From assembly GCA_963814365.1 (NCBI GenBank), contig CAWFCL010000004.1:1311432-1375431 (forward strand): a stretch of DNA of 64,000 nt, read 5' to 3'. The position numbers and the translations under genes were made by a program. The DNA comes from an uncultured Actinomycetes bacterium. Lineage in GTDB: Bacteria; Actinomycetota; Thermoleophilia; RBG-16-64-13. Each line of letters begins with the position of its first letter. The first letter of the stretch is position 1. The notes beneath the pieces are model-generated. The model did not search any database. It was not told the origin of the DNA and saw only the letters and a program-made list of their open reading frames with translations. Shown piece by piece: positions 4,301 through 43,770 of this stretch.

Positions 4301-5758
4301 TATGGGTTCAACAAGAGCCACTCGGTGTGCTTCGCGGTTATCAGCTACGCCACGGCCTGGCTCAAGGCCCACTACCCGGCGGAGTTCCTCTGCGCCGTCC
4401 TGAACAACCAGCCCATGGGCTTCTACACCCCCCGCACGGTGCTGAACGACGCCCGCCGCTTCGGGCTGGAGGTGCGGCCGCTGGATGTGAACCTGTCGGG
4501 ACGAGGTTTTGTAGTGGAGGACCTTGTGGCACCGGACCCCTGGGGTGTGGGAGACCCCTCGGCTTGTCGTGCGCAGCACTCTGGGGCGACACACACCTGC
4601 GGGGCGGGGACGCCCTACGACCCCTTCGCCCAGGCCTGGACCGCCGAGCATGGATGGGGGCTGACTGAGGTCGACCTGACGGCGCTGGCCACCGAGCAGG
4701 TGGGGGCAAATCCTGGTGATGTTTTGACCGGACGCGCGGGACCGCCGGTCGCGAGTCTGACGCCTGCCGGTGAGCCACGCTTGGGCGGCGGACCTTACGG
4801 TCACACACCCCGGGCGGGGGGCGAAGCGCCCCCAGATGACGAGGCGCACCCCCTACCCCGTGCGCCGCGCGCTCGCGGCGGCGTCGCGCCTGACGCTTGC
4901 CTCGCCCCCAGTTGCGGCATAGCCCCCGACGCGGGCCGGGCACTGCGCGTGGGCTTCAGCTATCTCAAGCAGATGAGTGAGCGAGCGCTTGCCCGCATCG
5001 AAGAGGAGCGCCAGCACGGACCCTTCAGCAGCTTCGAGGACTTCTACCTGCGCACTCGCGTGGAGCAGCCCGTGGCCGAGAACCTCATAAGGGTGGGCGC
5101 CTTCGACTCGCTGGAGCCAGACCGCACCGAACTGTTGTGGAGGCTGCCCGTGCTGCACGATCGTCTGGAGGCGCTGGCCGGGTCTTCCGGACAGAGGCGC
5201 GGCCAACTTCGGGCCTTCTTCAGCCCGCCGAGCCGCGCGGGACTGGAGCGCGAGTGGACGCGCGAGGACAAGGTGCGGGCCGAGCTCGACCTGTTGGGGC
5301 TCAGCGTGAGCTGCCATCCCCTGCAGCTCTACGAGGCGGAGCTGCGCCGCATGGGTGTAGTGATGAGCTACGAGTTGCCCGAGCTGGGCGACGAGGTGCG
5401 AGTGATGGTGGCCGGCGTCTACGAGCGTGCCCAGAACCCCTGGATGCGCTCGGGCAAGCGCACCATGTTCCTCACCCTGGAGGATGCCTATGGCCTCTTC
5501 GAGTGCGTGTGCTTTGAGAGCAAGCTGGCCCAGATCGCCCCCGTCGTGGCAAGGGCTAGCTACTTCTTAGTGCGTGGCCGATTGCAGAACAACCACAGGC
5601 GCGGGCTGGCTATCGTGGCTGAGGAGGTGCGGGATCTGGAGGAGGTGATGGCGGCTCCCGAGAGACACTCCCGACAAGACCGCACGCCAGGGAGAAACGG
5701 GATAGGGTCTGCTACTAGCTTCCCAGCCTGCCTCGGATGTTCTCGATTTCCTCCTTGA
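1343..5758 (+). CDS. dnaE2: Error-prone DNA polymerase III alpha-like DnaE2 (ImuC), unusually long at 1471 aa
   Basis: N-terminal PHP domain (HLHVHSNFSFLDG ... LTDHDGLYGAVRF). Polymerase core motifs (GRGSAGNSIVCHAL ... MPDIDVDF) and a C-terminal OB region. Low-complexity Pro/Ala/Arg-rich insertions account for about 400 extra residues. Confidence 0.85.
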   Translation: MTNDFVHLHVHSNFSFLDGGSRIEELAARAASLGQIALALTDHDGLYGAVRFAKACAKHGIKPIFGAELRVESLTDDARGTTPRAAPRTAPRAAPWETPGVAPPGDEPHHLVLLAETREGYTNLCQLISAAHLADPERERPPLVTLESLRAHVAGLICLTGCRHGEVGYLIDAGRDQDAQIALQTLREIFGPDHLYVELQYFGYQPHQEAYAGQHGATVYRKEPAPGGRLRHRPAAAHQYSTEAPPSSIRSLPDRPEAPPPPPSPPEHLSCVSDDQSATLHPTRSATLVASWRGGTRTGSATIGAPLPARGRTRSVAEPERRDLPAGAPHRLNPADYDVGFHKDGRPWRLSCLTYCERLARLAEASALPVVLTTNAHYAGPEGRDLHLVLRAAGHDQPLSGYPETVAGHRCLKSGDELATFSSPLLELIEDVDPWDRMLDDYDDWAPSDYGSVHTCAFAMNLASTCERGSPLAAATEIAARCNVDLELGVYHFPQVEVPAGETAYSLLAQRCFQGVAQRYKPVSMEAMALLEKELRVIQEMGFAHYFLVVHDIVRWARSQGIACSGRGSAGNSIVCHALDITASDPIRHHLLFERFLNPNRREMPDIDVDFCSERRDEVIEYIYKTFGEENVAIVANVNTASPRSAVRIVAEALGFAPAEINALAKHVPRHGDAARLREYLAGGWPELADSPLQDCAPAEPATPGGAPGRPAGRYARLVDLAERLDGFPLHLGTHLGGFVIADKPITHYAPLQWAAKRLAQRDAPPGGAAPGGARHAVVLQFNKDDVAALGLVKMDILGLRTHSAVSECVHLIRQRTGRRISPYELPPDDPAAYEIISNGGSIGLFQLESAGQRNLASRLKERDFDDVIAAIALYRPGPLEAEMITPFIDRRWGLEPVDLPHPSMAEAVADTYGVILYQEQVLRIAQSVAGFDLADADSLRRAMTRDRSREDMAKIGETFVSRAVERGVPEEAAREVFRQLQGFAAYGFNKSHSVCFAVISYATAWLKAHYPAEFLCAVLNNQPMGFYTPRTVLNDARRFGLEVRPLDVNLSGRGFVVEDLVAPDPWGVGDPSACRAQHSGATHTCGAGTPYDPFAQAWTAEHGWGLTEVDLTALATEQVGANPGDVLTGRAGPPVASLTPAGEPRLGGGPYGHTPRAGGEAPPDDEAHPLPRAPRARGGVAPDACLAPSCGIAPDAGRALRVGFSYLKQMSERALARIEEERQHGPFSSFEDFYLRTRVEQPVAENLIRVGAFDSLEPDRTELLWRLPVLHDRLEALAGSSGQRRGQLRAFFSPPSRAGLEREWTREDKVRAELDLLGLSVSCHPLQLYEAELRRMGVVMSYELPELGDEVRVMVAGVYERAQNPWMRSGKRTMFLTLEDAYGLFECVCFESKLAQIAPVVARASYFLVRGRLQNNHRRGLAIVAEEVRDLEEVMAAPERHSRQDRTPGRNGIGSATSFPACLGCSRFPP

Positions 5759-8108: not shown

Positions 8109-8131
8109 CGCCCGTCTTTCCCCCCTTGATG

Positions 8132-9064: not shown

Positions 9065-9105
9065 GTAGCCGTTGGATGCCAACAAACCTCCCGCTCAAGG
9101 ACCAC

Positions 9106-9891
9106 CTAGTCCTTCAACAACACCAATCCCCGGGGTTCCAGCATTGGGAAGAACTCTGGGCCCTTGGTCTTGGGCAAGGCTGAAATCCCCACGGGCGGAC
9201 GAGCGAACTGCCCTGCAAACTTCGCGAGAGAGGCTCGGTCCAGAAATACGGCAATGATGTGTGCGCAAGTGAGAAGAGTGTTCTGGCCTCCGGTACCATC
9301 CTTGATGTTGTGCCCCAGTCCGTCGTACTTGACGCTCTCGTTCAGCGAAAGTGCGACTACCATGTGGAGCCAAACGTCTGCCGGTATTCCGTGGATGTCC
9401 GGGATGCGTTCCAGGATAGTCTCCATGACCCTCTCAGGCGGAGACCAACGTAGCGCCCCTCGCTCATTTCTCCGGTAATCCTGCATCAAGGCAGCTCTGA
9501 AGAACAGGCACCCGACGAGTTCGAGAGCGAGTTCGTCGGCACGGCCTGTGCCTTGGAGATCTTCGAAGACATCTTCGAAAGTCGCTAGGTAGGGATACGG
9601 GGAACCGTCTAGCATCACCCGAGGGGTCATGTCGTCAGGGTTGTTGGTGGGTGTTCCGTCTTTGTGGCGACAGCCCTTGTAGGTATAGGGCGACTCCTTA
9701 CCTGGCTTGCAGAGGGCCACGCTATAACTGCCCGACTCGTACACAACGTGGGGAATCTGCTGCTCTGGGGACTGACCTTTGGGCCATTCCCGTGCCTCCA
9801 CAACAGCCTGAACCCTGAGAACGTACGCATCGTTGGTCAACGAGCCTTGCGGCAGTGCCAACTCAGGAAACTCGACATCGTGATCGGTCAT
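9106..9891 (-). CDS. Hypothetical protein; positional candidate for the restriction endonuclease of the adjacent Dcm/Vsr module
   Basis: 261-aa ORF co-oriented with and directly downstream of vsr. No recognisable motifs beyond acidic patches. Confidence 0.35.
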   Translation of the reverse strand: MTDHDVEFPELALPQGSLTNDAYVLRVQAVVEAREWPKGQSPEQQIPHVVYESGSYSVALCKPGKESPYTYKGCRHKDGTPTNNPDDMTPRVMLDGSPYPYLATFEDVFEDLQGTGRADELALELVGCLFFRAALMQDYRRNERGALRWSPPERVMETILERIPDIHGIPADVWLHMVVALSLNESVKYDGLGHNIKDGTGGQNTLLTCAHIIAVFLDRASLAKFAGQFARPPVGISALPKTKGPEFFPMLEPRGLVLLKD

Positions 9892-9956
9892 TCGGCCCTC
9901 CCCTGTGCACAGACAACTGCTCCAGGATAGGACTTTCTGCGTATTGATGCGAGAGC

Positions 9957-10361
9957 CTAGTACCGCCTGGACGACTGAACTGGTCTTGCTCGAGCCAGCG
10001 CGTCCTCTATTTCACCGACCACAGCTTCAGGTTCTTCGGCCAGCCGGCACTCCCAAACAACCAGAACATGCCAACCGAGTTGCTCGAGAATCCGCACCTT
10101 CTTGGCATCACGTTCGACGTTCAGTTCGAACTTCTTCGCCCAGAAGTCTGAGTGACTCTTCGGGAGTGCCGGATGACAAGTCGGGCAACGATGCCAGAAA
10201 CACCCATGCACGAAAATCGCCAAACGCTTACCTACGTAGGCAATATCCGGATGCCCCGGCAGGTTTCTCGAATGCAGCCGATAGCCGGGGTGGCCGGCCT
10301 CTCTGAGCAGACGCCTCAGCTGCAGCTCGGGCCCCGTGTTCTTACCCCGGTTTCCCTTCAT
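9957..10361 (-). CDS. vsr: Very short patch repair endonuclease Vsr
   Basis: Hallmark motif (LAIFVHGCFWHRCPTCH ... FWAKKFELNVERD ... GWHVLVVWEC). ATG at 10361. The upstream 66 codons of the ORF-track model are low-complexity and probably not translated. Confidence 0.85.
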   Translation of the reverse strand: MKGNRGKNTGPELQLRRLLREAGHPGYRLHSRNLPGHPDIAYVGKRLAIFVHGCFWHRCPTCHPALPKSHSDFWAKKFELNVERDAKKVRILEQLGWHVLVVWECRLAEEPEAVVGEIEDALARARPVQSSRRY

Positions 10362-10402
10362 CGAGGCGGTCACAGCCTCCGAAGTGGGCGGGGGAGGCGG
10401 AC

Positions 10403-11726
10403 CTAGGCGGGAAGGCACTCTCTCGCCTTCTCCGGGAGGGATTCCTTGATGCGCGTCATCTCGACAGCTAGCTCTCGGCCTATCCTCTCGACTACACCCA
10501 CAACAAGAGCGTTGCCCATGCAGAACGCTCGCCGTGTGTCCGGCATCCCTTCGGTCCAATCGTCGGGGAAGCCGTCTATCCGCTCAAGCTCGACTGGGGT
10601 CAACCGCCGGTATCTGCCACTCGGGGTGAGAACAAGATGCTTGAATCTCGACGGGCTGGTCCCGCCCTCTCCCGTAAGAATCGTCCTCGCTGGCTGCTCC
10701 AGATGGTCAGGGAAGGGAATGGCCCCTTCTGAATACAAGTAGGGCTCTCCATTCCTGTGCCGGCGAGGCTCCTTCTTTGCGCCCTTCAGATAACGCCAGC
10801 TTTCCAGGGCCTCATCAGTAACGAAGAATTCCTCCGGAACCTCAGCCTCGGGCACCAGAACGTCCTTGAGTCTGTCCTTGGGTCCATGGTAGTTGGGGGT
10901 CAACTCGCGAGTCCACACAATACGATTCCACGCTATCCCAGCATTCTTGAACGGATTGCCAAAGTTTCCGGCATTGAAGCCAGTCGACACCTCAACCGCA
11001 TCTCCATAGATGCGAAAGTCCCCGAAACCCAAGCCCGGTTGGCTCGAAGGGTGAGCAGGCAAGGCCCTGGCCAAAGGTCCCTCGCTCTCGATGTACCTCA
11101 CGCCATCGAAAGACTCCGGCTCCGCACCAGCGTCCGACTCCCCAAGTAGTTCCCCCACGATAAACACGCGCCTGCGCTTCTGGGGAAAGCCGTAATCAGC
11201 CGCATTCACCACGCGCCACTCGACTCTGTAACCAAGGTCACACATGGTCGCCAAGATGATGGCGAAGTCCCGGCCGCGTTGTTTCGCGGGAGACTTCAAC
11301 AACCGGTCAACGTTCTCCAGCAATACAAGGGGGGGCCGGCGAGCCTCCAGCAGTCGATAAATTTGCCACCAAAGAACGCCCTTCTTGCCCTCGATGCCGT
11401 GGGCATGGCTGGCGGGTCTGGCGACAGAGTAGTCTTGGCACGGGAAGCCCCCAACCACCAAGTCAACCTGGTCGGGCACTTCAAACGTGTTGTCCCCAAC
11501 CTCGAGAGAGTCGAGAACAACGGTGATATCCTCGCAGACATGCGTGCCAGTTGAGAACCGTCGCTCGTAGCACCATGATGCGTGCTGAGTCTTGGTCCCA
11601 GGTTCCCATTGGTTGCTCCAGGTGACTTCCCACCCGGAACCTCTCAAGTCCGATTCTGAAGCCACCTACTCCTGCAAACAGCTCGATGACATTGCCGATT
11701 GGGGTCGGCCTCCGTGCGTTCTTCAC
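10403..11726 (-). pseudogene. dcm: DNA (cytosine-5)-methyltransferase (Dcm-like), frameshifted
   Basis: Motif I (LFAGVGGFRIG) lies in ORF 11481..11726. Motifs IV (GFPCQDYSVA), VI (ENV) and the rest of the enzyme lie in ORF 10403..11665 in a different frame. The frames overlap at 11481..11665, so a frameshift falls near 11560-11640. Confidence 0.7.
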
Positions 11727-11873
11727 TGACGTCCCTGCCTTTCATGGCTGCCCAAACAGGGCTAGCGGTGATTTTCGGCCTTGGGCTTTCTTCTTCATGC
11801 AGTAAATCATAGAGGGCCAGTCGGACGGAAGAGAAATGGGCCACCGGCCACACGAATTCCACACACCCCGGGG

Positions 11874-11954
11874 CCAGACTCACCCCCAGCGTGGCGTCGC
11901 CACCCAGTCCAACCAACACCAGAACTTGCCCCGAGAAACGGTCGACCTCAGACC
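11874..11954 (+). repeat. Intergenic ~85-bp repeat, copy A (family consensus ...AGACTCACCCCCGGCGTGGCG.CAC.GCCCGTCCAACCAACCCCAGGATTTGCCCCAACAGACGGTCAGACTCGCTCC)
   Basis: Aligns by eye to copies B-F. Lies between the dcm start and the mazG-like end. Confidence 0.65.
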
Positions 11955-11978
11955 ACGGGCCTGTTCATGAAGCCAGCC

Positions 11979-12339
11979 CTACGTAGCCGAACCCCGCCCC
12001 CGCTTGTTCGACCAAGCCCTCCCCTTGGCCTCCTCGACCGGGAAGCGCTCGGCATTCTCCTCGACCTTGGCCAAGGCCTCCGCAACCAGATCGACACCTA
12101 GGTCGTCGGCCAGCAGCACCAGGTAGATGAGCACGTCGGCCATCTCCCTCGCCACCTCGGCCCGGCCCTGGTCGCCCGGGGTCTCGCCGTCGCGGCGCCA
12201 CTGGAAGTGCTCACGTCAGCTCGGCCGCCTCCACCGCCACACTGGTGGCCAGGTTCCTGGGGGTGTGGAACTGCTCCCAGTCTCGGGCCTCGCGGAAGGC
12301 GATCAGCTCCTGCCGCAGCTTCTCCAGACCACTATCCAT
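11979..12339 (-). pseudogene. MazG-like nucleotide pyrophosphohydrolase (small NTP-PPase), 1-bp frameshift
   Basis: Reverse-strand translation gives MDSGLEKLRQELIAFREARDWEQFHTPRNLATSVAVEAAELT*, then in the -1 frame EHFQWRRDGETPGDQGRAEVAREMADVLIYLVLLADDLGVDL. This is a classic MazG/YpjD fold. An extra T sits at about 12205 (ACG-T-GAGCAC). Confidence 0.6.
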
Positions 12340-12354
12340 GGGCGTCGACCTCGC

Positions 12355-12732
12355 TCACTCCCATTCCAGGACCGCCTCTTCGGTACGGCTGCGGAAGAAG
12401 TCCTCCGTCTCCTTGTCCATGAAATAGACATAGCAGCCCTTCATGGCTCTGGAGAGGAGCGCCCTGCATGAGTTCTTGACCAGGTCCACGAACTTGTCGC
12501 CTGAGCGCTTGACCACCGTGTCGTATGAATGCTCCTTCTGCCCGACCCATCCAGTACCCGGGCGATAGACCAGGTCGGGGCCGAAGATCAGCCCCGCGTA
12601 GTCCAACTCGAAACCCTGAGCGGTGTAGATGCAGCCCACCTGGTCGATACCCCGCGGGTCGTAGGCCCAGAGGCTCTCCGTCCTCGCGCCAACGTGCGGC
12701 CAAGGGCGGAGTAGCGCCGGCCAAAGCTGCCG
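12355..12732 (-). pseudogene. C-terminal remnant of a DUF2075-family (AAA/helicase-like) protein
   Basis: Only the last ~125 aa are present (LWAYDPRGIDQVGCIYTAQGFELDYAGLIFGPDLVY ...), matching the conserved DUF2075 C-terminus. An in-frame stop lies upstream with no N-terminal body. Confidence 0.5.
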
Positions 12733-12819
12733 CTACGCTCTTGGTACGCCATCGACAACCTTCGGAAAGGAGTGGGTGTATGCTTGCCCCGGACACAGTC
12801 AGTCGCCTGGAGGCGCCAA

Positions 12820-13041
12820 GTGCAGTACCACTTCTCCGCGGTCGTCGGACACGATACGGATGGCTATTGGGCCAGGTGTCCCGAACTGCAAGGCTGCTAC
12901 ACCCAGGGCCGCAGTTACGAGGAAGCGCTCGCAAACCTGCGAGAGGCCGTGACGCTTCATATCGAAGACCGACTAGCCGCTGGCGAAGATGTCCCGCAGG
13001 TAGAGACCATCAGCCTGATCACGGTCGAAGTACCCGAATGA
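12820..13041 (+). CDS. hicB: HicB-like / UPF0150-family antitoxin
   Basis: VQYHFSAVVGHDTDGYWARCPELQGCYTQGRSYEEALANLREAVTLHIE. GTG start with a GGAGG SD 6 nt upstream. No hicA partner seen. Confidence 0.6.
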   Translation: MQYHFSAVVGHDTDGYWARCPELQGCYTQGRSYEEALANLREAVTLHIEDRLAAGEDVPQVETISLITVEVPE

Positions 13042-13099
13042 ACCCACGGCTCCCGTGCCTCACCGCGAGGGAGATGCAACGGCACCGCCCACCCCGCGG

Positions 13100-13195
13100 C
13101 TAGGGTCACCCCCGGCGTGGCGTCACTGCCCGTCCAAACACCGCCGGAATTTGCCCCAACAGATGCGAAGACCGCCCGAAAGCGGTCTCGCGGCC
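13100..13195 (+). repeat. Intergenic repeat, copy B
   Basis: GGTCACCCCCGGCGTGGCGTCACTGCCCGTCCAAACACCGCCGGAATTTGCCCCAACAGATG... in the same orientation as the other copies. Confidence 0.6.
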
Positions 13196-13289
13196 CGAGC
13201 GTGTAGCCTGGGGGTTGCGCTCACTATCCTGCATCTCTATCCAAAGTCTCATATGACGATCAGACAGCGTGTGCCACACTCGGTCCCAC

Positions 13290-14051
13290 ATGAAGATCCT
13301 GTATCTGGACGAATCCGGTGACCACAACCTGGTGCGCATCGACCCTCAGTACCCCATCTTCGTCCTTGGTGGAGTGCTGGTCGATTCCGATGATGTTCGA
13401 GAGATGCACGAGGAGCTTTGCGGCCTCAAGCGGCGATTCTTCGCGGACACCCATCTGATCCTGCGCACTTCAGACATATCCAGAAACCGGCTCGGCTTCG
13501 AGTGCCTCACCGACACCCCCACGCGCCAGCGGTTCTACCGGGAACTGAATGACTTGATGGAGCGCTTGGACTATTCAGTGGTGGCTTGTGCTGTGCGCAA
13601 GGACCGCTTTCGCCCGGCCTTCCCCGAGCCCGACCGTGACCTCTATCTCATCTGCCTGGAGATGCTCGCCGTACAGCTGTACCACCAGACCGCTGTTGCA
13701 GGAACGGACGCGATCATAGTGGCCGAGTCCAGGGGCCAGGTGCTCGACACACGCCTCAAGCGCTCTTGGCTGCGCCTGCTGGCCGAGGGTGCCGGCAGTC
13801 TTTCGGGAGAGACCATCCGGCGCAACGTCAGAGCACTCCTCTTGCGCTCGAAGAAGGTGAATCTCGCCGGTCTCCAACTGGCTGACTTGGTAGTCGGTCC
13901 CATCGGACGCTTCGTCCTAGGCCGGAGATCGAATGAGGACTTCCGCATAATCGCAGGCAAGCTGATCCGAGGTCCAGGGGCCGAATATCCCGATGGGGCT
14001 CTGGTGGTTCTGCCCAAAGAAGAAGGTCAGGACCCGCTACGCAGTTCCTAA
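13290..14051 (+). CDS. DUF3800 domain protein (defence-island associated)
   Basis: Starts MKILYLDESGDHN, the DUF3800 hallmark. Confidence 0.7.
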   Translation: MKILYLDESGDHNLVRIDPQYPIFVLGGVLVDSDDVREMHEELCGLKRRFFADTHLILRTSDISRNRLGFECLTDTPTRQRFYRELNDLMERLDYSVVACAVRKDRFRPAFPEPDRDLYLICLEMLAVQLYHQTAVAGTDAIIVAESRGQVLDTRLKRSWLRLLAEGAGSLSGETIRRNVRALLLRSKKVNLAGLQLADLVVGPIGRFVLGRRSNEDFRIIAGKLIRGPGAEYPDGALVVLPKEEGQDPLRSS

Positions 14052-14147
14052 CCTTGCATCCAGTTTACTACCGAATTCAGAAGTTGACCAGAAGAAGCTC
14101 TAGGTCTTTGGTCGCAGGTGGCACCACTGCAGGCCGCGTGCCCCGCG

Positions 14148-14240
14148 GAGAGAGTCGCTGCCGGCGTGGCGGCACTGCCCGTCCAAACGACATCAGAGCT
14201 TAGCCCGACAAATGCAGGCACCACCCGAACGCACGCGGCG
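14148..14240 (+). repeat. Intergenic repeat, copy C (more diverged)
   Basis: GAGAGTCGCTGCCGGCGTGGCGGCACTGCCCGTCCAAACGAC ... shares the core GGCGTGGCG..CAC.GCCCGTCCAA. Confidence 0.5.
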
Positions 14241-14418
14241 CGTGGCAGGCGCCAAGATACATCCATGGTCCCACACCTGCTGACGGCCGCTCGGGCAACA
14301 ATACGCCCCAGAGCAGGGCCCCAAGGACCAGCCTACTTGAGGACGGTCGGATGGAGGGTTATGGTTTTGGTCAATACAGCCTCTTTCCCGCCCCAAAATA
14401 CAGGGAAAGGGGCACTCT

Positions 14419-14847
14419 CTATCCCCGCAGCCGCTCCACCATCTCCGCCACCGTCACCACCTTGAGACCCGGCACTACAGCCTCAAGCAGTCGCCTGTCG
14501 CCAGTCACAATGGTGGTGGCGCCCGCCTGCAGTGCAGTCTCGACGATCGGGTCGTCGTTCGGGTCCGCAGTCCAGCGCTCGCACGCGACAAGAATGGGAG
14601 TTACCTCCATGAAGCCGGCGAGTTCCACAGCCAAGGTTTCACAGATGTCGGAAGCGAAACCGAACTTCACGCTGAGAAGAACGTCCTGAAACTCCCGGAG
14701 GATGTATAGAGAGGTGACTCCTCGGATCCGCCCGACACGTGTGGCCTCAACCGTCTCTGCCGGCTTGCCACCGAACAAGACGGCTGAGAGCAGCACGTTG
14801 GTGTCGAGGACTACCTTCTCAGGAACGCTGCCCACGCGACTCCGCAA
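14419..14847 (-). CDS. vapC: PIN-domain toxin VapC
   Basis: VVLDTNVLLSA ... DPNDDPIVETALQAGATTIVTGDRRLL. The start is probably GTG at 14835; TTG at 14847 is used in the ORF track. It overlaps the vapB stop. Confidence 0.75.
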   Translation of the reverse strand: MRSRVGSVPEKVVLDTNVLLSAVLFGGKPAETVEATRVGRIRGVTSLYILREFQDVLLSVKFGFASDICETLAVELAGFMEVTPILVACERWTADPNDDPIVETALQAGATTIVTGDRRLLEAVVPGLKVVTVAEMVERLRG

Positions 14848-15070
14848 GAGCCCGCTCGATGTCCGCTTCGCTCAGACCTCGCTCGGCCGCTTGTCGCCTG
14901 ACCTCGGCGAGCAACCTCTCCCACCGGGACACGGTCGGCTTCATGATGACCGTCTGGTCACGGACGGCGACGTCCACTTCCGTGTCGGCGCTCAGATCCA
15001 GATCCAAAGCGATCTCCTTGGGTATGGTCACGGTCAGACTGTTGCCGACTTGCCGTACCTTGACTCGCAT
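14819..15070 (-). CDS. vapB: AbrB/MazE/SpoVT-type antitoxin VapB
   Basis: MRVKVRQVGNSLTVTIPKEIALDLDL. ATG at 15070 with an AAGGAGG SD. Confidence 0.75.
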   Translation of the reverse strand: MRVKVRQVGNSLTVTIPKEIALDLDLSADTEVDVAVRDQTVIMKPTVSRWERLLAEVRRQAAERGLSEADIERALAESRGQRS

Positions 15071-15205
15071 ATCGCCTCCTTGATGTATACGCAGTATACA
15101 CCGCGATGCGCCCCAGTGGTTGAGTGCAAGGTCCGCCACGACGCTTCGCAACCCTATCGCGACTAAGCGGGTGCTGTCTCACAACTTGGTATGAGCCAGG
15201 AGAGT

Positions 15206-15300
15206 GCGACTCACTCCCGGCGTGGCCGCATCGCCGGGTCCAACCAACCCCAGAATTTGCCCCAACAAACGGTCAGACTCGCTCCAGAGCCCTCTCCATG
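15206..15300 (+). repeat. Intergenic repeat, copy D
   Basis: Near-full match to the consensus. Its 3' end (GCTCCAGAGCCCTCTCCATG) encodes MERALERV* on the minus strand, identical to the C-terminus of the aminotransferase at copy F. Confidence 0.7.
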
Positions 15301-15348
15301 TCGGGAAGGCTGGATAGCAGAAGCGATCGAACTCCCCGGTAGGCTCGC

Positions 15349-15663
15349 CTACGCCACCTGCAGCGGTCGAATCCGCTCGACCTGATCCCCGATCGACTGC
15401 TCTGCATCCCATAGATCTATGGCACGTTGAGCGTTCAGCCAGAACTCTGGGCTGTTTCCGAACAAACGAGCCAGACGTAATGCCATCTCAGGACTGAGAG
15501 CCCGACGCTCTCTTATCAGCTCGTTGACGGTCTGCCGAGTCACCCCCAAGGCCCCAGCTAGGCCGGCGACAGTCAGGGAGTAGTCGGGCATGAAGTCCTC
15601 TCTCAGCATCTCTCCCGGGTGCGTAGGACGGACCGTTCTGTTCATTGTGTTCGGTATGCTCAT
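15349..15663 (-). CDS. higA: HigA-like XRE-family antitoxin
   Basis: HPGEMLREDFMPDYSLTVAGLAGALGVTRQTVNELIRERRALSPEMALRLARLFGNSPEFWLNAQ. Confidence 0.75.
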   Translation of the reverse strand: MSIPNTMNRTVRPTHPGEMLREDFMPDYSLTVAGLAGALGVTRQTVNELIRERRALSPEMALRLARLFGNSPEFWLNAQRAIDLWDAEQSIGDQVERIRPLQVA

Positions 15664-15676
15664 GTCTCACCGCCCG

Positions 15677-15854
15677 TCAGTGGTAGTCGATGATCTCTAC
15701 GTCGAACGCATCAGTGCCCACGAAACGGAAGCAGATGCGCCACTTTTCGTTGATGGAGGCGCTTCGCACGACGTACGATGTCCGGAGGCAAACGACGCGA
15801 CCGACCAGTCTCGTAGAGACACCGCGTATGCTCGTCGGCGAGCGTCCTTATCAT
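15677..15854 (-). pseudogene. higB: HigB (RelE/ParE-fold killer) remnant with internal deletion and frameshift
   Basis: Minus-strand translation gives MIRTLADEHTRCLYETGRSRRLPPDIVRRAKRLHQ.., then in another frame WRICFRFVGTDAFDVEIIDYH*. The central ~35 residues of a normal ~92-aa HigB are missing. Confidence 0.6.
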
Positions 15855-15971
15855 ATCAAACTGTCACGTGTCATGTTACACCTACCAACTTGCCGCGTGG
15901 CCTCTTCGGGCTCAATGCTCACATCCGTGGTCGATGCGCGAATCAGACTTTGAGTGGAGCCTGCGGCACCC

Positions 15972-16055
15972 CGCGCCCAGACTCACCCCCGGCGTGGCGT
16001 CACGGCCTGTCCAACCAACCCCAGGATTTGCCCAACAGACGGTCAGACTCGCTCC
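15972..16055 (+). repeat. Intergenic repeat, copy E
   Basis: CGCGCCCAGACTCACCCCCGGCGTGGCGTCACGGCCTGTCCAACCAACCCCAGGATTTGCCCAACAGACGGTCAGACTCGCTCC. Confidence 0.7.
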
Positions 16056-16067
16056 GTCACTGGTCTC

Positions 16068-16375
16068 CTAGAACCTTCCGAATAGCCTGCGTACGAAATC
16101 GAGATCGCTGTCGCGTATGCGCTGGTAGATCTCGGCTCTACTGCCCACCTTGACCACTATCACCAGCAGTAGCTCATCCTTGACCGTGTATACGATACGG
16201 TGGACGCCGACCCTGGCCCGATACAGACTGTCGTATCCGCTCAGTTTCTCGCAGCCGTTGGGCGTGGATCGTCGGCCAGCGAATCTATCCTGGCGGCCAC
16301 TTGCACCAGAACGGCACGGTCGAGTCTCCTGAGTTGCCGCTGGGCGGCTGGACTGACCTCGATGCGGTGAGGCAT
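16068..16375 (-). pseudogene. relE: RelE/ParE-family toxin with a 1-bp frameshift
   Basis: N-terminus in one frame (MPHRIEVSPAAQRQLRRLDRAVLVQVAARIDSLADDPRP..). C-terminus in a second frame (..CEKLSGYDSLYRARVGVHRIVYTVKDELLLVIVVKVGSRAEIYQR). Confidence 0.65.
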
Positions 16376-16384
16376 CCCCTGCGA

Positions 16385-16640
16385 CTACAACCCCAGTTCG
16401 GCCTTGAGGTCGTGCCAAGACACAGAGCCACGCCCCTCCAACTCCTTCAGGGCATCGGCGGCATCAGCCAGATCCAGGCGGTCTTCGATGAGCGCGAGGA
16501 TACGCGCTTCGGTCATGGACACGAGAACAGGCAACGTCCTTGCCGTGCCGGGTCAAGCACACCCTCTCCTTGCCATAGGCGACGCGATTGACTATCTCTG
16601 CCAGATCATCGCGGGCTGCGGTCACGGGCATGCTGGTCAT
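16385..16640 (-). pseudogene. yefM: Phd/YefM-family antitoxin with a 1-bp frameshift
   Basis: MTSMPVTAARDDLAEIVNRVAYGKERVCLTRHGKDVA, then in a second frame VLVSMTEARILALIEDRLDLADAADALKELEGRGSVSWHDLKAELGL*. An extra T falls in GCC-T-GTTCTC. Confidence 0.65.
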
Positions 16641-16810
16641 GTGTCGGTTCCTCCGTCGAAGTTCGTGCGCCATCTGGAAGCTACGCAGTGGTTACGTACG
16701 TATTGTACTTCTCGTACGTTACGTACGACAAGGGACGGCACTACTCTCGCACTGGTTCAAGCGGGCCGCTATCCGACTTTGGGTGGTGCTTGGCGGTCTG
16801 GCGAGAGGCC

Positions 16811-16909
16811 CGCGCCTAGACTCACCCCCGGCGTGGCGGCACAGCCCGTCCAACCAACCCCAGGATTCGCCCCGGGAAACCGTCAGACTCGCTCCAGCGC
16901 CCTCTCCAT
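16811..16909 (+). repeat. Intergenic repeat, copy F, overlapping the aminotransferase stop
   Basis: CGCGCCTAGACTCACCCCCGGCGTGGCGGCACAGCCCGTCCAACCAACCCCAGGATTCGCCCCGGGAAACCGTCAGACTCGCTCCAGCGCCCTCTCCAT. Confidence 0.7.
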
Positions 16910-18130
16910 CCGCGTCAACGCCTCCACCAGCGTCACCCGCGGGCAGGCGAAGTTGAGGCGCACGAACCCCTCCCCGCCCTTGCCGAATATGGCGCCGTCG
17001 GCCAAGGCGACCTCTGCCTCTTTCAGGAAGAAGTCCGCGGCGTTCGTGGTGCCGGTGGCGCGTGCGGCCTGTGCGGTGCTCAGGAACTCGCGACAGTCGA
17101 GCCAGGCCAGGTAGGTGCCCTCCAGCGCGGTCATGCTCACGCCCGGCAGTCGGGTGCTGACGAAGTCGAACAGGTAGTCGCGATTGGCCTCCAGGTACGT
17201 GAGCACCGCATCCAGCCAGGGCTGTCCCTCCTGGTAGGCGGCAAGCATGGCCGTGAAGCCCATCACGTCAACGTGCGGCACCAGACCGCGGCCGGTCTTC
17301 TCGAACTGCGTCCGCAGCGCCTCGTCCTCGATGATCGCCACCGAAGCCTTGATACCGGCGATGTTGTAGGTCTTGCTGGGGGCCATGAAGGTGATGGTCC
17401 GCGCCGCGACCTCCGGGGACAGCGAGGCGATAGGCACGTGCTCGTGCCCCGAGAAGACCAGGTCGCAGTGGATCTCGTCGGAGCATATGACCACCCCGCG
17501 AGCGAGACAGATCTCGGCCATGCGGGTCAGCTCGTCCCTGTAGAAGACCCGCCCTGTGGGGTTCTGCGGGTTGCAGAGCAGAAAGATGCGCGTCCGCTCG
17601 GTGATGGCCGCCTCGAAGGCCTCGTAGTCGACCGTGTAGCGGCCGTCGGGGCGGCGCGTCAGCTCCACGGCTTCCATGGTGCAGCCGGAGTTCTCAGGCG
17701 CGTAGAGCATCGGATGGTAGACGGGGGTATGCAGCAGCACACCGTCACCGGGTGCGGTCACGGCGCGGACTGCCTGGTTGAAGCCGGTCACGATGCCTGG
17801 CAGGAAGAGAAACGCTTCGGGAGCGACAGTCCAGCCGTAGAGCCTTTGGAGGCGCTCGACCAGGAGGGGCCGCAGCTCGGGCGGCTCTTGGCCGTAGCCG
17901 AAGATGCCGTGCTCCACGCGGTCGCGCAGGGCGGCGACGACGGGTTCGGGAGCGCGGAAGTCCATGTCGGCGACCCAGAGGGGCAGGGCGTCATCGTAGA
18001 AGCTCCACTTGAGGCTGTCTGAGCCGCGGCGGTCGATGACGCGGTCGAGGTCTGCCGGCGCGGGGGCCTGCGGAGTTGGCGCGGTCGTCGGGCCCGTCGG
18101 GGCGGCCGGAGGCGCTGCCCGCTTGTTCAT
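16883..18130 (-). CDS. PLP-dependent C-S lyase / aminotransferase class I-II (PatB/MalY family)
   Basis: DRRGSDSLKWSFYD ... VADMDFRAPEPV ... SKTYNIAG (PLP lysine). ATG at 18130. The ORF-track upstream extension is low-complexity. Confidence 0.8.
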   Translation of the reverse strand: MNKRAAPPAAPTGPTTAPTPQAPAPADLDRVIDRRGSDSLKWSFYDDALPLWVADMDFRAPEPVVAALRDRVEHGIFGYGQEPPELRPLLVERLQRLYGWTVAPEAFLFLPGIVTGFNQAVRAVTAPGDGVLLHTPVYHPMLYAPENSGCTMEAVELTRRPDGRYTVDYEAFEAAITERTRIFLLCNPQNPTGRVFYRDELTRMAEICLARGVVICSDEIHCDLVFSGHEHVPIASLSPEVAARTITFMAPSKTYNIAGIKASVAIIEDEALRTQFEKTGRGLVPHVDVMGFTAMLAAYQEGQPWLDAVLTYLEANRDYLFDFVSTRLPGVSMTALEGTYLAWLDCREFLSTAQAARATGTTNAADFFLKEAEVALADGAIFGKGGEGFVRLNFACPRVTLVEALTRMERALERV

Positions 18131-18333: not shown

Positions 18334-21300
18334 TTGCTCTCGCGTGAGCAGGGTACCTCTTACCCAAGCGAAGTAAGTTCGAGTACTTGTCACCACAAGG
18401 GGGCCCACATAAAATCGCGATGGTCGATCTCCAACGGACCACGGCAGCAGCCGCAAACCGAAGCTGTCACCGGAGTGACGCTGTCTGAACTCCTGAGTTC
18501 AGACCAGCTGAAGCACCACGCGGCGAAGCTGGCCACGTACCACCCGGTCGATCGAAATGCGGGCGAAGACCGGCTGCTCCCCCGGCTGGCCCAAAACGAG
18601 TCCATCATCGTCCAGGCCTACAGCGTGGTCACACGCGCGGCCTCCGCCGGACAAGCGATCACGCCCGCCGAGACCTGGCTGCTAGACAACTTCTACCTTA
18701 TAGAGCAACAGATAGCTCTGGCCCGCCGCCATCTGCCTCGCGACTACAGCCGCCAATTGCCCCGCCTGAGCGAAGGCCCCTTGGCCGGATATCCCCGCAT
18801 CCACGACCTGGCACTCGACCTGATCGCCCACCAAGACGGCCGCATAGACCGCGATAACACCGGATCGTTCATCGCCTCTTACCAGTCGGTAGAACCCTTA
18901 GAGCTTGGTGAACTGTGGGCCTTCCCCATCATGTTAAGACTGGGTCTGCTCGAGAACATCGGCCGGGTAGCGACCAGGATCGCCCGACGACGCGCAGAGC
19001 GTGATCTCGCGGTCAAGTGGGCGGACCGCCTGCTTGTGACTGCCGAGGAACAACCTAAGCGCCTGATCCACTTGCTGGCCGAGCTAGCTGAGGCTCCTGT
19101 GTCGCTCACCGCCACGTTCGTCGAGGATTTCTATGCCCGCCTCCAAGACCACGGACCTGTGATAGGCGTAGTGCAGGCCTGGCTGGAACATCAGCTTTCG
19201 CAAGAAGGCGTCAGCACCTCAGGGCTTCTGGACATGGCCAGTCGTGCGGCTGCCTCTGATCAGATCTCCATCGCCAATAGCATAGGCAGTCTCCGCTTCA
19301 TCTCAGCCCTCGATTGGGGACAGTTCGTAGAGGATCTTAGTCCGGTGGAGCAACTCCTATCCACCGATCCGGCCGGCGTCTACTCCGCCCAGGACTTCGC
19401 GACCCGCGACCGATACCGGCACGTCGTCGAAGCGGTAGCGCGAGGGACCCAGCAGAACGAGTCAGAAGTGGTCCGCGCTGCCCTTGCTCTCGCCCAGGCT
19501 GCGGCGGACCGGTCGGGTGTCCAAGACCGCACTGCCCACGTGGGCTACTACCTGGTAAGCCGAGGCAGACGCTCCCTCGAGCAGGCAGTCGGCAGCCGGG
19601 TACCACTGCTGACCAGACTGGCTCGAGTGCCCCGCCCTCTGCGTCTCTTCTCGTACGTTGCCCCCATCGTCATCCTTAGTGCCATAGCCGTCGCCCTACC
19701 GATCGCCTACGCAACCGCGCTAGATCGTGCCTATGTCGAGCTCATCTTCTTCACGCTGGTGGGGTTCCTGGCCGCCTCGGCACTGGTAGTGCCCGTAGTC
19801 AACCAGCTTGTCACCGTCATGCTGCCCCCGCGGGTACTACCGCGACTAGACTTCCACGACGGCATCCCCAAGGCTCATCGGACGCTGGTCGTCATCCCCA
19901 CGCTCGTGGGGTCTCCTGATCAGGTGACAGCGCTGCTAGAGGCTCTGGAGGTGCGCTATCTGGGGAACCGCGACCCCAATCTGTTCTTTGCTCTGCTCAC
20001 CGATTTCAATGACGCCTCCGAGCAGAGGCGGCCCGGCGACGACGAGTTACGCGCTCATCTGCGGACCGGCGTCGAGACTCTCAACGAGACCTATGCCGAA
20101 GATGGCCAAGACGTCTTCTACCTGTTCCACAGGCAGCGAGTCTGGAATCCGCGCGACCGCGTGTGGATGGGATACGAGCGAAAGCGCGGCAAGCTCGAGC
20201 AGTTGAACGCTCTGCTGCTCGCCGCCCGTGCGGACGACGAGCGGCCGCAGCCAGAAACCGAGCAGTCTCGGACCAAGGCGGCTCGAGGCGTTCTGTGACA
20301 TCGTCGGCGACCAGTCGCTCCTGGGCTCTATCCGCTATGTCATCACCCTGGACACCGACACCCAGCTGCCCCGCGACACCGCCCGTCTGCTTGGTGGGCA
20401 ACATGGCCCATCCGCTCAATCGACCCGTGTACGACTCCGCACATGGACGGGTCGTGAGGGCTACGCCATCCTGCAGCCCCGAACGTCCATCAGCCTCACC
20501 AGCACCAGCAGTTCCCGCTTCACGCGCCTCTTTGCGGGCGAGGCCGGCATCGACCCGTATACGCGTGAGATATCGGACGTCTACCAGGATCTCTTCGGCG
20601 AAGGCTCGTTCGTGGGCAAGGGCATCTACGACGTGCGAGGCATTCTCCAGGGCTGTCGCCGGGCGCTTTCCCGAGAACCTGATACTCAGCCACGACCTGC
20701 TCGAGGGCTGCTACGCGCGCTCGGCTCTGGTGACCGATGTCGACCTGATCGAAGAGCATCCCATCAGCTACACCATGGACGCCAGCCGCAGACACCGCTG
20801 GACCAGGGGCGACTGGCAACTGGCCGGCTGGCTGCTGCCGCGCGTGCCCGGTCCCGCACGGAAAGCGACAACGCAATCCACTCTCGCTTGCTCTCGATCT
20901 GGAAGCTGTTCGACAATCTGCGCCGCAGCCTGCTGCCGGCCGCGCTTCTTGCGCTGTGGCTGGGAGGATGGTTCTGGCAGCACGGCTACTTCTGGCTGTG
21001 GCCGCTGTCTGGTGGCCGGCGCGTTCTTCGGCCCGGTGATCGATCGCGGGACTGATCGACCTGGTGCGAAAGCCGGCTGAGCGCAGGTGGCTGCTGCACT
21101 TCGAACCTGACGGCCAAGTCCTTGGCTCGACCACTGTCTGCGCGCCTTGCTCGGGCTGGTCTTCTTGCCTTACGACGCACTGATCTATCTGGGCGCCATC
21201 TTCCGCGCGATGACGAGCCTGCTCATCACGCGGCGAGGGCTGCTGCTGTGGCAGTTGCCCTCGTACAAGCGGCGAAACTCCCGCAGCACCCCGCTGGAGG

Positions 21301-43142: not shown

Positions 43143-43172
43143 CGCACCCTTCCCTCGTTCGCTGACGGCAGA

Positions 43173-43730: not shown

Positions 43731-43770
43731 ATCCCCTCTCGTAGTTGTACGACGTGACCTCGATGCGGGT

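What the first reader, a model, noticed from the sequence alone, without database searches (positions are those of the whole stretch)
11874..16909. Cassette-like array: small TA/defence modules each delimited by a same-orientation ~85-bp repeat
Six copies (A-F) of one repeat family (core GGCGTGGCG.CAC.GCCCGTCCAACCAACCCCAGGATTTGCCCCAACAGACGGTCAGACTCGCTCC) sit at every boundary between small gene modules: mazG-like/DUF2075-remnant/hicB, DUF3800, vapBC, higBA, relE-yefM. Spacing is 0.8-1.2 kb. All copies are co-oriented although the flanking genes point both ways. Unit size, TA-rich cargo, degraded cassettes and co-oriented boundary repeats are the signature of a sedentary integron-like cassette array. 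However, the repeats lack RYYYAAC/GTTRRRY cores and hairpin symmetry, and no integrase lies in the window. This may therefore be a different, undescribed cassette-accretion or recombination mechanism, or a regulatory RNA family.
Basis: seen in the sequence. Interest (0 to 1): 0.8.

Follow-up and report, generated by a model that had tools for sequence, protein, structure and literature searches.

The report
Repeat-bounded toxin-antitoxin module array
Six same-direction copies of a ~100-base sequence separate five small toxin-antitoxin/defence gene modules next to a housekeeping gene in an uncultivated bacterium; the array looks like serial insertion at one recombination site, it is not an integron, and the enzyme responsible is unknown.

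Summary
Six co-oriented copies of a 100-115 nt unit (74-89% pairwise identity) lie at 11856-16909, one at each boundary between five 0.76-1.23 kb TA/defence modules. The only other copy in the 64 kb is diverged and sits inside dnaE.

It is not an integron. There are no R''/R' box pairs and no hairpin, and no recombinase domain appears in any scanned ORF of at least 180 aa.

Copy F contains the stop codon of a PatB/MalY aminotransferase. Copies D and E carry dead copies of that gene's last 9 and about 5 codons, so these units are duplicates of an insertion target.

The family was recovered in five related metagenomic contigs. There the units mark points where gene content switches: the dcm-vsr flank is conserved and the neighbour differs. 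An intact hicA in one relative is cut exactly at unit B in the window.

Best reading (about 0.45): tandem accretion of recombinase-less modules at an att-like site, like CIME or ssrA-island arrays but at cassette scale.

Main rival (about 0.22): a self-spreading interspersed repeat, suggested by the in-frame dnaE copy and one inverted copy.

No structured RNA is supported. Genome-wide distribution, excision and the enzyme remain untested.

The parts
11856..11969 (+). Unit A, the distal copy, between the dcm start and the MazG-like pseudogene
   Evidence: nhmmer E 8.6e-24. Orthologous units lie next to dcm in L092 and L093.
13084..13189 (+). Unit B. A hicA stub ends about 5 nt before its left edge. 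Its right part holds a terminator-like hairpin (about 13165-13190).
   Evidence: The B-type right flank is conserved in L098 9049-9111.
14133..14236 (+). Unit C, the most diverged copy. Its right end is B-like.
15204..15301 (+). Unit D. It carries a dead copy of the last nine aminotransferase codons plus the stop (MERALERV*), read on the - strand.
   Evidence: Sequence read. Shuffle test score 24-26 against 6.7 +/- 1.3.
15966..16064 (+). Unit E. It carries a 13-16 nt copy of the aminotransferase 3' end. The relE stop lies 3-12 nt to its right, depending on where the unit edge is drawn.
16797..16909 (+). Unit F, the proximal copy. The aminotransferase stop codon (16883-16885) lies inside it.
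16883..18130 (-). PatB/MalY-type aminotransferase, the conserved gene whose 3' end is the presumed insertion target
   Evidence: Pfam PF00155. The C-terminal RM..AL motif is native to the family.
11979..12339 (-). MazG-like gene with a frameshift, 4 nt downstream of a solo unit fragment
12341..12354 (-). Solo 'Block III'-like fragment (GCGAGGTCGACGCC) between the helicase remnant's stop and the mazG start. Suggestive only.
   Evidence: The 9-mer occurs 6 times in the window against 1 expected.
12355..12690 (-). 3' remnant of a SLFN-g3 helicase (PF09848)
   Evidence: Pfam profile positions 272-354 of 354 only.
12772..13041 (+). hicB antitoxin
   Evidence: Pfam PF15919. 84% nt identity to L090.
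13038..13078 (+). hicA stub (13 codons), cut about 5 nt before unit B. hicA continues past this point in L090.
13290..14051 (+). DUF3800 protein
   Evidence: Pfam PF12686. The exact protein is a singleton cluster on the 1.6 Mb source contig.
14419..15071 (-). vapBC-like pair: PIN_3 toxin (14419-14847) and a MazE/AbrB-type antitoxin
15349..15854 (-). higA (15349-15663, intact) and higB (15677-15854, internally deleted)
16068..16640 (-). relE/parE-like gene (16068-16375) and phd/yefM (16385-16640), each with one frameshift. A palindromic operator and a promoter-like site lie at 16695-16732.
4651..4777 (-). Diverged unit-like segment in frame inside dnaE (…GANPGDVLTGRAGPPVASL…)
   Evidence: nhmmer 24 bits, E 1.4e-6, with the six-copy model. 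No hit in 1.3 Mb of other loci. The segment is patchy among DnaE relatives.
9957..11665 (-). dcm (10403-11665) and vsr. This is the conserved flank on the distal side of unit A.
   Evidence: Pfam. Syntenic in L092, L093 and L098.

Best explanation
The array is a product of tandem accretion. Small TA/defence modules that carry no recombinase were inserted one after another into a single ~95-125 bp recombination site. That site overlaps the 3' end of the PatB/MalY aminotransferase gene.

Each insertion regenerated the site next to the gene and left an older copy on the far side of the new module. This gives co-oriented units at every boundary. The youngest copies (F, E, D) lie nearest the gene and the older, more diverged copies (C, B, A) lie farther away.

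The units are double-strand, sequence-defined sites. Conserved blocks are AGACTCAC…, GTCCAAMCAACNCCAGRATTTGCCC and GGTC(A/G)(G/A)(A/C)CTC. They are not hairpins.

Shown here:
- The units exist and are co-oriented.
- F contains the gene's stop codon.
- D and E contain dead copies of the gene's terminal codons.
- Related contigs switch gene content at the units.
- The units are internal mosaics.

Inferred, not shown:
- The modules entered as circles carrying a matching site.
- A recombinase encoded elsewhere acts in trans. I favour a site-specific tyrosine or serine enzyme over RecA, because the units share only 74-89% identity and their longest identical runs are about 20 nt.
For: 1. There are six co-oriented units, one per module boundary, within 5 kb. 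No other intergenic copy occurs in the remaining 59 kb.
2. The aminotransferase stop codon lies inside F. D repeats the last nine codons plus the stop, 25 of 27 nt identical. E repeats 13-16 nt. The shuffle test scores 24-26 and 14 against 6.7 +/- 1.3. These codons are native to the aminotransferase family. The repeats are therefore duplicated target sequence.
3. D, E and F are the most similar copies (86-89%) and share ~35 nt of extra left-hand sequence. Copies farther from the gene are more diverged.
4. Relatives show switches in gene content at the units:
- L092 aligns with window 9194-11776, and again at unit A. It then carries a DUF429 gene instead of mazG.
- L093 has helicase-unit-dcm.
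- L090 has hicB followed by a hicA that continues past the point where the window's hicA stops, about 5 nt before unit B.
- L081 has an aminotransferase 89% identical in protein sequence. It keeps only about 20 nt resembling the unit's first block, followed by a different HicA-containing pair.
5. Block-wise identities are incongruent. The 'mid' block is 88-94% identical among B, C, E and F, although their right ends are only 30-55% identical. This indicates exchange among units.
6. In L097, a relative by DnaE (72% identity), a complete-looking dnaE that runs off the locus start is followed by two displaced dnaE 3' halves with unknown genes between them. An extra 315-nt copy of the dnaE 3' end is also present. 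This is the same growth mode, insertion with duplication of a gene's 3' end.
7. Named precedents exist: CIME/ICE accretion (PMC5704250) and tandem ssrA islands with repeats of the ssrA 3' end in Dehalococcoides (PMC3146451).
Against: - No recombinase or transposase domain was found in any scanned ORF of at least 180 aa in the 64 kb, nor in the genes called around units in L093, L097 and L098.
- There is no direct evidence of excision, circles or empty sites.
- The units show no inverted-repeat core of the kind usual for tyrosine-recombinase sites.
- The copy of aminotransferase codons is significant only in D and E. It is marginal in A (p 0.03) and absent in B, C and the units of other contigs.
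- A cargo-less, in-frame copy sits in dnaE, and one inverted copy flanks dcm-vsr in L093. Simple accretion at one site does not predict either.
- Junctions on the gene-proximal side of the units fall at variable positions.
- TA-rich stretches in L093 and L094 have no such units.
Confidence: 0.45

Rival explanations
1. The unit is a lineage-specific interspersed repeat (MITE/REP/RPE-like, non-autonomous) that copies itself into gene-end or intergenic positions. It piles up in a flexible TA/defence island because insertions are tolerated there. On this view, module boundaries coincide with units only because those are the available intergenic gaps.
For: - A cargo-less copy lies in frame inside dnaE. 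It is present in some DnaE relatives and absent from others.
- Copies occur in several related contigs, next to unrelated genes and in both orientations (L093a/b, L097, L098).
- The unit often supplies or abuts the stop codon of the upstream gene. Rickettsia RPEs and mycobacterial MIRUs behave in comparable ways (my own knowledge).
Against: - There are no terminal inverted repeats, no hairpin and no target-site duplication.
- D and E include variable lengths of the neighbouring gene's 3' end, which a self-contained element would not carry.
- All six intergenic copies in the window fall in one 5 kb stretch and point the same way. None lies in the other 59 kb.
- No orthologous pair was found with the same flanks with and without a unit, apart from the dnaE loop.
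Confidence: 0.22
2. The same accretion pattern arises without a dedicated recombinase. Circularised modules that carry a copy of the unit, or of a gene's 3' end, integrate by RecA-dependent single crossover (Campbell type). Gene conversion then keeps the units alike.
For: - In L097 the duplicated target segments are long and of variable length (315 nt and 1.9 kb, 82-96% identity). This suits homology-driven insertion.
- The mosaic units and the homogenised 'mid' block suggest gene conversion.
- No recombinase gene lies nearby.
Against: - The window units are short (about 100 nt) and only 74-89% identical. Their longest identical runs are about 20 nt, which is poor substrate for RecA.
- hicA is cut at the unit's edge rather than within shared homology.
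Confidence: 0.13
3. The unit is a functional 3'-flank element of the upstream gene. It could be a protein-binding insulator, an unconventional terminator, or an mRNA 3'-UTR or small-RNA module. It would be retained by selection and copied along with genes.
For: - In 8 of 11 intergenic copies, a gene on the unit's sense strand ends within about 0-190 nt of the same end of the unit.
- The unit is conserved where the surrounding intergenic DNA is unalignable, as in window versus L092.
- The sense strand is G-rich and the antisense strand C-rich.
Against: - No Rfam family matches.
- Fold z-scores range from -1.5 to +1.8 on both strands.
- RNAalifold on 6 and on 11 copies gives weak energies and essentially no covariation.
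- Apart from B, no hairpin with a T-run coincides with a unit.
- This reading does not explain the copied aminotransferase codons or the truncated hicA.
Confidence: 0.1
4. The array is a canonical integron cassette array without an integrase (a CALIN), with divergent attC sites.
For: Co-oriented sites at 0.8-1.2 kb spacing, TA-rich cargo and degraded cassettes resemble sedentary chromosomal integrons.
Against: - No RYYYAAC…GTTRRRY pair lies 50-160 nt apart on either strand.
- No inverted repeat coincides with the units.
- Single-strand DNA folds are no better than shuffled sequence.
- No integrase was found in 64 kb.
- The units are conserved in sequence, not in structure.
Confidence: 0.02

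Closest known systems
Tandem accretion of integrative elements and cis-mobilizable elements (CIMEs), e.g. ICESt1-related elements of Streptococcus thermophilus (reviewed in PMC5704250)
   Same: Elements that have lost or lack integration genes remain flanked by att sites. [quoted passage not shown] The result is arrays of co-oriented att repeats.
   Different: CIMEs are several kilobases long and derive from ICEs or IMEs whose integrase is identifiable in related elements. Here the modules are 0.4-1.2 kb, no cognate integrase is known, and the repeats are about 100 nt at only 74-89% identity.
Tandem ssrA-specific genomic islands of Dehalococcoides (PMC3146451)
   Same: Multiple islands lie in tandem downstream of one conserved gene. 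Each is bounded by a co-oriented direct repeat of that gene's 3' end. Some islands lack integration genes and were proposed to be cis-mobilizable.
   Different: That repeat is a 20-bp copy of ssrA, the islands are much larger, and many carry a serine recombinase (DsiB) next to attL. None of this was seen here.
Sedentary chromosomal integron cassette arrays / CALINs (PMC4889954)
   Same: The scale is the same: about 1 kb units, one site per cassette, co-orientation, TA cassettes with their own promoters, and decayed cassettes.
   Different: attC sites are structure-defined imperfect palindromes with R/L boxes, recombined as folded single strands by IntI. These units have no such symmetry or boxes and are conserved in sequence.
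SCC composite islands at the 3' end of rlmH (orfX) in staphylococci (from my own knowledge, not checked here)
   Same: Serial insertion occurs at the 3' end of a housekeeping gene. Direct repeats contain the integration site. Pseudo-SCC elements without ccr genes sit in the same arrays and depend on recombinases supplied in trans.
   Different: SCC elements are much larger than these ~1 kb modules and their flanking repeats are much shorter than these ~100 nt units. The CcrAB/C serine recombinases are known.
In-frame interspersed repeats such as Rickettsia palindromic elements and mycobacterial MIRUs (from my own knowledge)
   Same: A short repeat can sit in frame inside an essential gene (here dnaE), or overlap the stop codon of the upstream gene.
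   Different: RPEs are palindromic and MIRUs are tandem minisatellites. These units are neither, and six of them delimit gene modules.

Membership tests
Integron cassette array (attC sites / CALIN) | attC with complementary R'' (RYYYAAC) and R' (GTTRRRY) boxes 50-160 nt apart | tested here: not met
   A regex scan of 11700-17100 on both strands found 0 pairs. GTCCAAC occurs in four units, but without a partner.
Integron cassette array (attC sites / CALIN) | An imperfect palindrome that folds into a stable single-strand hairpin | tested here: not met
   DNA folds of both strands of all six units give z-scores from -1.5 to +1.8 against shuffles. No inverted repeat coincides with the units.
Integron cassette array (attC sites / CALIN) | An IntI-type tyrosine recombinase with attI at one end of the array. 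This defines a complete integron and is absent by definition from a CALIN. | tested here: not met
   No Phage_integrase or other recombinase domain was found in about 66 ORFs scanned across the 64 kb.
Integron cassette array (attC sites / CALIN) | A score above threshold with the IntegronFinder attC covariance model | not testable with these tools
   The model is not in Rfam. Rfam scans found nothing.
Tandem accretion of att-flanked, integrase-less elements (CIME-like) | Direct repeats that include the 3' end of the target gene | tested here: met
   F overlaps the aminotransferase stop codon. D repeats 27 nt and E repeats 13-16 nt of the gene's end. The copy is marginal in A and not significant in B or C.
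Tandem accretion of att-flanked, integrase-less elements (CIME-like) | Co-oriented repeats at every element boundary, with content polymorphism at the repeats in relatives | tested here: met
   All six units are co-oriented. L092 and L093 differ from the window at unit A, and L090 differs at unit B. The relatives are at species or genus distance, not strain level.
Tandem accretion of att-flanked, integrase-less elements (CIME-like) | A cognate integrase somewhere in the genome or in sister elements, and demonstrable excision | not testable with these tools
   The source contig (1.6 Mb) could not be fetched. No recombinase lies near units in L093, L097 or L098.
MITE / REP-type interspersed repeat | Terminal inverted repeats or a palindromic hairpin, plus a target-site duplication | tested here: not met
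   The longest flank matches are 4-6 nt at inconsistent positions. Unit edges are fuzzy, so the target-site-duplication test is weak.
MITE / REP-type interspersed repeat | Many dispersed copies in both orientations across the genome | tested here: inconclusive
   The window holds only one copy outside the array, in dnaE. Relatives show copies in both orientations. No whole-genome scan was possible. There were 0 strict-pattern hits in 185,579 species genomes and in the JGI metagenomes, and 2 real hits with a second pattern.
Structured non-coding RNA family | A conserved secondary structure with compensatory changes, or an Rfam match | tested here: not met
   no credible Rfam hit; the covariation term is about 0.

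The most novel reading that the evidence does not exclude
This is a non-integron gene-cassette system. An unlinked recombinase recognises a ~100-bp double-strand, sequence-defined site with no hairpin. It uses that site to capture and shuffle 0.4-1.2 kb TA/defence cassettes at the 3' end of a housekeeping gene. The site's central block would differ between species because it co-evolves with the enzyme.
Probability: 0.2. Interest if true: 0.85.

Novelty: new variant of a known kind. Interest (0 to 1): 0.55.

Why it matters
If modules of about 1 kb really are captured at a sequence-defined site by an enzyme acting in trans, cassette-scale gene capture would extend beyond integrons. It would also extend into a poorly sampled, uncultivated high-GC lineage, and would supply a new recombination site/enzyme pair to look for.

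Even on the conservative reading, the locus is a compact, datable record of how TA/defence islands grow by repeated insertion at a gene's 3' end. The in-frame copy in dnaE and the tandem dnaE 3' halves in a relative suggest this growth mode is common in the clade.

If the unit turns out to be a generic interspersed repeat, the finding is ordinary.

Tried and rejected
- **Canonical attC / integron.** Rejected: no box pairs, no hairpin and no integrase.
- **tRNA or tmRNA fragments as att sites.** None were found.
- **Rfam families.** None at gathering threshold. Three weak matches in the E-value scan (E 0.16-1.4) are all far below their gathering scores.
- **Structured RNA.** RNAalifold on 6 and on 11 copies gave nothing.
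- **Protein coding by the unit.** Indels shift the frame between copies, and substitutions between B and F show no third-codon-position bias (my reading of the sequences). Rejected.
- **Strict repeat pattern.** 0 hits in genome contigs, in metagenome contigs and, in a slightly shortened form, in viral contigs. blastn of unit F against plasmids and phages found no match. Two looser patterns in viral contigs also gave 0 hits.
- **Fetching the source contig.** This failed. Exact-protein look-ups were not on record, although the proteins are in the collection on a 1,617,670-nt contig.
- **Synteny around 87 aminotransferase homologues.** No units and no dnaE linkage were found.
- **L093 as an exact 'empty site' for the mazG module.** Rejected. 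Its helicase is not orthologous to the window's helicase remnant.
- **All units, including those in other contigs and in dnaE, carrying aminotransferase codons.** This looked plausible by eye, but the shuffle test supports it only for D and E, with A marginal.
- **dif/Xer-type site.** Inspection by eye found no dif-like inner palindrome, and the cumulative GC skew does not switch. No formal test was run.
- **DDE-type composite transposon.** Rejected for lack of TIRs. The inverted pair flanking dcm-vsr in L093 remains unexplained.

Full report
**1. The observation**

The repeat finder, MAFFT and a profile search all recover six direct, co-oriented copies of one sequence. Their coordinates are 11856-11969 (A), 13084-13189 (B), 14133-14236 (C), 15204-15301 (D), 15966-16064 (E) and 16797-16909 (F).
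- A degenerate pattern derived from the copies matches exactly these six places, against none in 100 shuffles.
- Pairwise identity is 74-89%.
- Start-to-start spacing is 762-1228 nt.
- Pfam confirms the cargo: a MazG-like gene, a 3' remnant of a SLFN-g3 helicase (PF09848), hicB, a DUF3800 gene, PIN plus a MazE/AbrB-type antitoxin, higA, and relE/parE plus phd/yefM.

Reading all frames adds detail.
- higB carries an internal deletion.
- The helicase is only a C-terminal stub.
- mazG, phd and relE each have one frameshift.

Several ordinary genes in the window are also split: the glucan phosphorylase at 18334-27108, an MFS gene, and glutamate synthase. Single frameshifts may therefore be assembly errors rather than decay.

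**2. What the units are not**

They are not attC sites.
- No RYYYAAC…GTTRRRY pair lies at attC spacing on either strand.
- No inverted repeat coincides with the units.
- Single-strand DNA folds of both strands are no more stable than shuffles, with z from -1.5 to +1.8.

They are not a known or evidently structured RNA.
- Rfam gives nothing credible.
- RNAalifold on six, and later eleven, copies finds weak structures with essentially no covariation.

They are not tRNA or tmRNA fragments. They are not coding, because indels break the frame between copies.

No recombinase or transposase domain occurs in any scanned ORF of at least 180 aa in the 64 kb.

The array lies at the end of a lower-GC island. 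That island also holds dcm, vsr, a 261-aa unknown gene, an HNH_2 nuclease and an AAA protein. It sits between dnaE (1343-5758, +) and a PatB/MalY aminotransferase (16883-18130, -).

**3. The key anatomical fact**

The aminotransferase stop codon (16883-16885) lies inside unit F.
- Read on the gene's strand, F encodes …RMERALERV*.
- Unit D, 1.6 kb away and next to higA, carries ATGGAGAGGGCTCTGGAGCGAGTCTGA. This is the same nine codons plus the stop, with 25 of 27 nt identical.
- Unit E carries the last 13-16 nt.
- A shuffle test gives local scores of 24-26 for D and 14 for E, against 6.7 +/- 1.3 expected. A is marginal (p 0.03). B, C and units from other contigs are not significant.
- The RM..AL C-terminus is native to this aminotransferase family.

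D and E are therefore dead copies of the target gene's end plus its downstream flank. D, E and F are also the most alike (86-89%) and share ~35 nt of extra left-hand sequence.

Duplication of a gene's 3' end at element boundaries is the classic footprint of insertion by recombination at that site.

**4. Relatives**

The strict pattern has no match in 185,579 species genomes, in the JGI metagenomes or in viral contigs. The source genome is a 1.6 Mb NCBI/ENA contig that could not be fetched.

The closest aminotransferase relatives lack the unit.
- L081 (89% protein identity) has a different HicA-containing pair directly after the gene. It follows about 20 nt that resemble the unit's first block.
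- L088 (84%) has no unit.

A second pattern recovered two real homologues. Anchoring on dcm and on dnaE found three more contigs.

| Contig | What it shows |
|---|---|
| L092 | Aligns with the window through the 261-aa gene, vsr and dcm (70% nt), is unalignable in the dcm upstream region, and aligns again at unit A. It then carries a DUF429 gene where the window has mazG. |
| L093 | Has helicase-unit-dcm-vsr, plus a second, inverted unit on the other side of the dcm-vsr module. |
| L090 | Has hicB (84% nt) followed by a hicA that continues past the point where the window's hicA stops after 13 codons, about 5 nt before unit B. L090's own unit appears to truncate a metallophosphoesterase gene. 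|
| L098 | Has dnaE followed by a convergent vsr/REase/dcm island. Beyond it lie a partial B-type unit in front of an NYN gene and a full unit abutting the 3' end of another gene. |

Units therefore mark places where gene content switches between relatives. It was done at species or genus distance, not strain level.

**5. Mosaicism**

Block-wise identities are incongruent.
- The central block is 88-94% identical among B, C, E and F, although their right ends are only 30-55% identical.
- That central block differs in every other genome.
- The flanking blocks (AGACTCAC…; GTCCAAMCAACNCCAGRATTTGCCC) are conserved across genomes.

This pattern points to exchange among units within a genome. It may also reflect a genome-specific recognition element.

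**6. Complications**

A diverged unit lies inverted and in frame inside dnaE at 4651-4777, encoding …GANPGDVLTGRAGPPVASL….
- It scores 24 bits, E 1.4e-6, with the six-copy model. No comparable hit occurs in 1.3 Mb of other loci.
- The DnaE alignment shows the same peptide in some relatives (P0244, P0246, P0254) and not in others (P0245, P0253, P0255-57).
- The unit can therefore exist without cargo. Its relation to dnaE, whether ancient insertion or origin, is unresolved.

L093b is inverted. TA-rich stretches in L093 and L094 have no units. No target-site duplications or terminal inverted repeats are seen.

These points keep a self-spreading interspersed repeat alive as a rival.

**7. A related observation in the clade**

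L097 is a relative by DnaE (72% identity).
- A dnaE that runs off the start of the locus, and looks complete, is followed by two displaced dnaE 3' halves. These are 1.9 kb long and 96% and 82-93% identical to the first copy.
- Unknown genes lie between them.
- There is also an extra 315-nt copy of the dnaE 3' end.

This is again insertion with duplication of a gene's 3' end. The same growth mode therefore operates elsewhere in these genomes.

**8. Mechanism**

The best-supported account is tandem accretion. Small modules without a recombinase inserted repeatedly at an att-like site overlapping the aminotransferase's 3' end. Each event left a co-oriented copy of the site.

The closest described processes are:
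- CIME/ICE accretion (PMC5704250);
- the tandem ssrA islands of Dehalococcoides (PMC3146451);
- SCC composite islands (from my own knowledge).

The differences here are scale (0.4-1.2 kb modules), the ~100-nt non-palindromic site, and the absence of any identified recombinase.

Whether the enzyme is a site-specific recombinase acting in trans (favoured) or RecA acting on short homology cannot be decided. Excision has not been shown.

**9. Verdict**

The integron-like reading is partly supported as an analogy, but integron membership is rejected. The RNA reading is not supported.

Confidence by explanation:

| Explanation | Confidence |
|---|---|
| Accretion at an att-like site | about 0.45 |
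| Interspersed self-spreading repeat | about 0.22 |
| Homology-driven accretion (RecA) | about 0.13 |
| Functional 3'-flank element | about 0.10 |
| Integron (CALIN) | about 0.02 |

Novelty: a new variant of a known kind. Interest: 0.55.

The organism's phylum is unsettled. The nearest named DnaE relatives are MAGs labelled Thermoleophilia or Actinomycetota. The nearest aminotransferase relatives are Chloroflexota MAGs.

Noticed in passing
window 4651-4777 (inside dnaE 1343-5758): A diverged, inverted copy of the unit lies in frame in a low-complexity loop of DnaE, between the finger and HHH_6 domains. The same peptide (GA[NK]PG.V.TG…SL.P) is present in some DnaE relatives and absent from others.
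   Followed up: partly
L097 1-11800 (ENA ERZ25039527 contig_35438): A dnaE that runs off the locus start is followed by two displaced dnaE 3' halves (1.9 kb; 96% and 82-93% identity). Two and three genes of unknown function lie between them. An extra 315-nt copy of the dnaE 3' end is also present. This looks like serial insertion into dnaE. A long-read assembly artefact is not excluded.
   Followed up: partly
window 18334-27108, 28019-29363, 50291-53346: A large GH94/glucan phosphorylase-type gene, an MFS transporter and a glutamate-synthase gene are each split over several overlapping ORFs. This suggests indel errors in the assembly or widespread pseudogenes. It bears on how much 'cassette decay' is real.
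   Followed up: no
window 1343-5758: DnaE is 1471 aa long, with large Pro/Ala/Gly-rich insertions (roughly aa 75-100, 205-345, 690-715 and 1040-1190) relative to the Pfam domain layout.
   Followed up: no
window 42594-44167: Three tandem, mutually similar segments (70-78% identity over 100-190 nt) cover two adjacent small genes without Pfam hits (182 and 185 aa) and a third partial copy. This appears to be a local paralogue family.
   Followed up: no
window 5715-11665; L092, L093 7541-9327, L098 3038-7773: A dcm + vsr module recurs in four related contigs with varying partners: a 261-aa unknown gene, HNH_2 and an AAA protein here, and a RE_SacI_N protein in L098. In the window and in L098 it lies convergent to dnaE. 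In L093 it is flanked by inverted units.
   Followed up: partly
window 13155-13218 and L098 9049-9111: The right end of unit B plus ~35 nt beyond it is 81% identical to a segment in front of an unrelated NYN gene in L098. The segment includes a hairpin (GACCGCCCGAAAGCGGTC) that reads as a terminator-like stem on the - strand.
   Followed up: partly
window 16695-16732: Nested palindromes (CGTACGTA…TACGTACG) overlap a promoter-like site upstream of phd/relE. This is probably the autoregulatory operator of that TA pair.
   Followed up: no
whole window; Taxonomic signals conflict. The best aminotransferase relatives are Chloroflexota/Anaerolineae MAGs (65% or lower in genome representatives). DnaE and Dcm relatives are labelled Thermoleophilia or Actinomycetota.
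   Followed up: no
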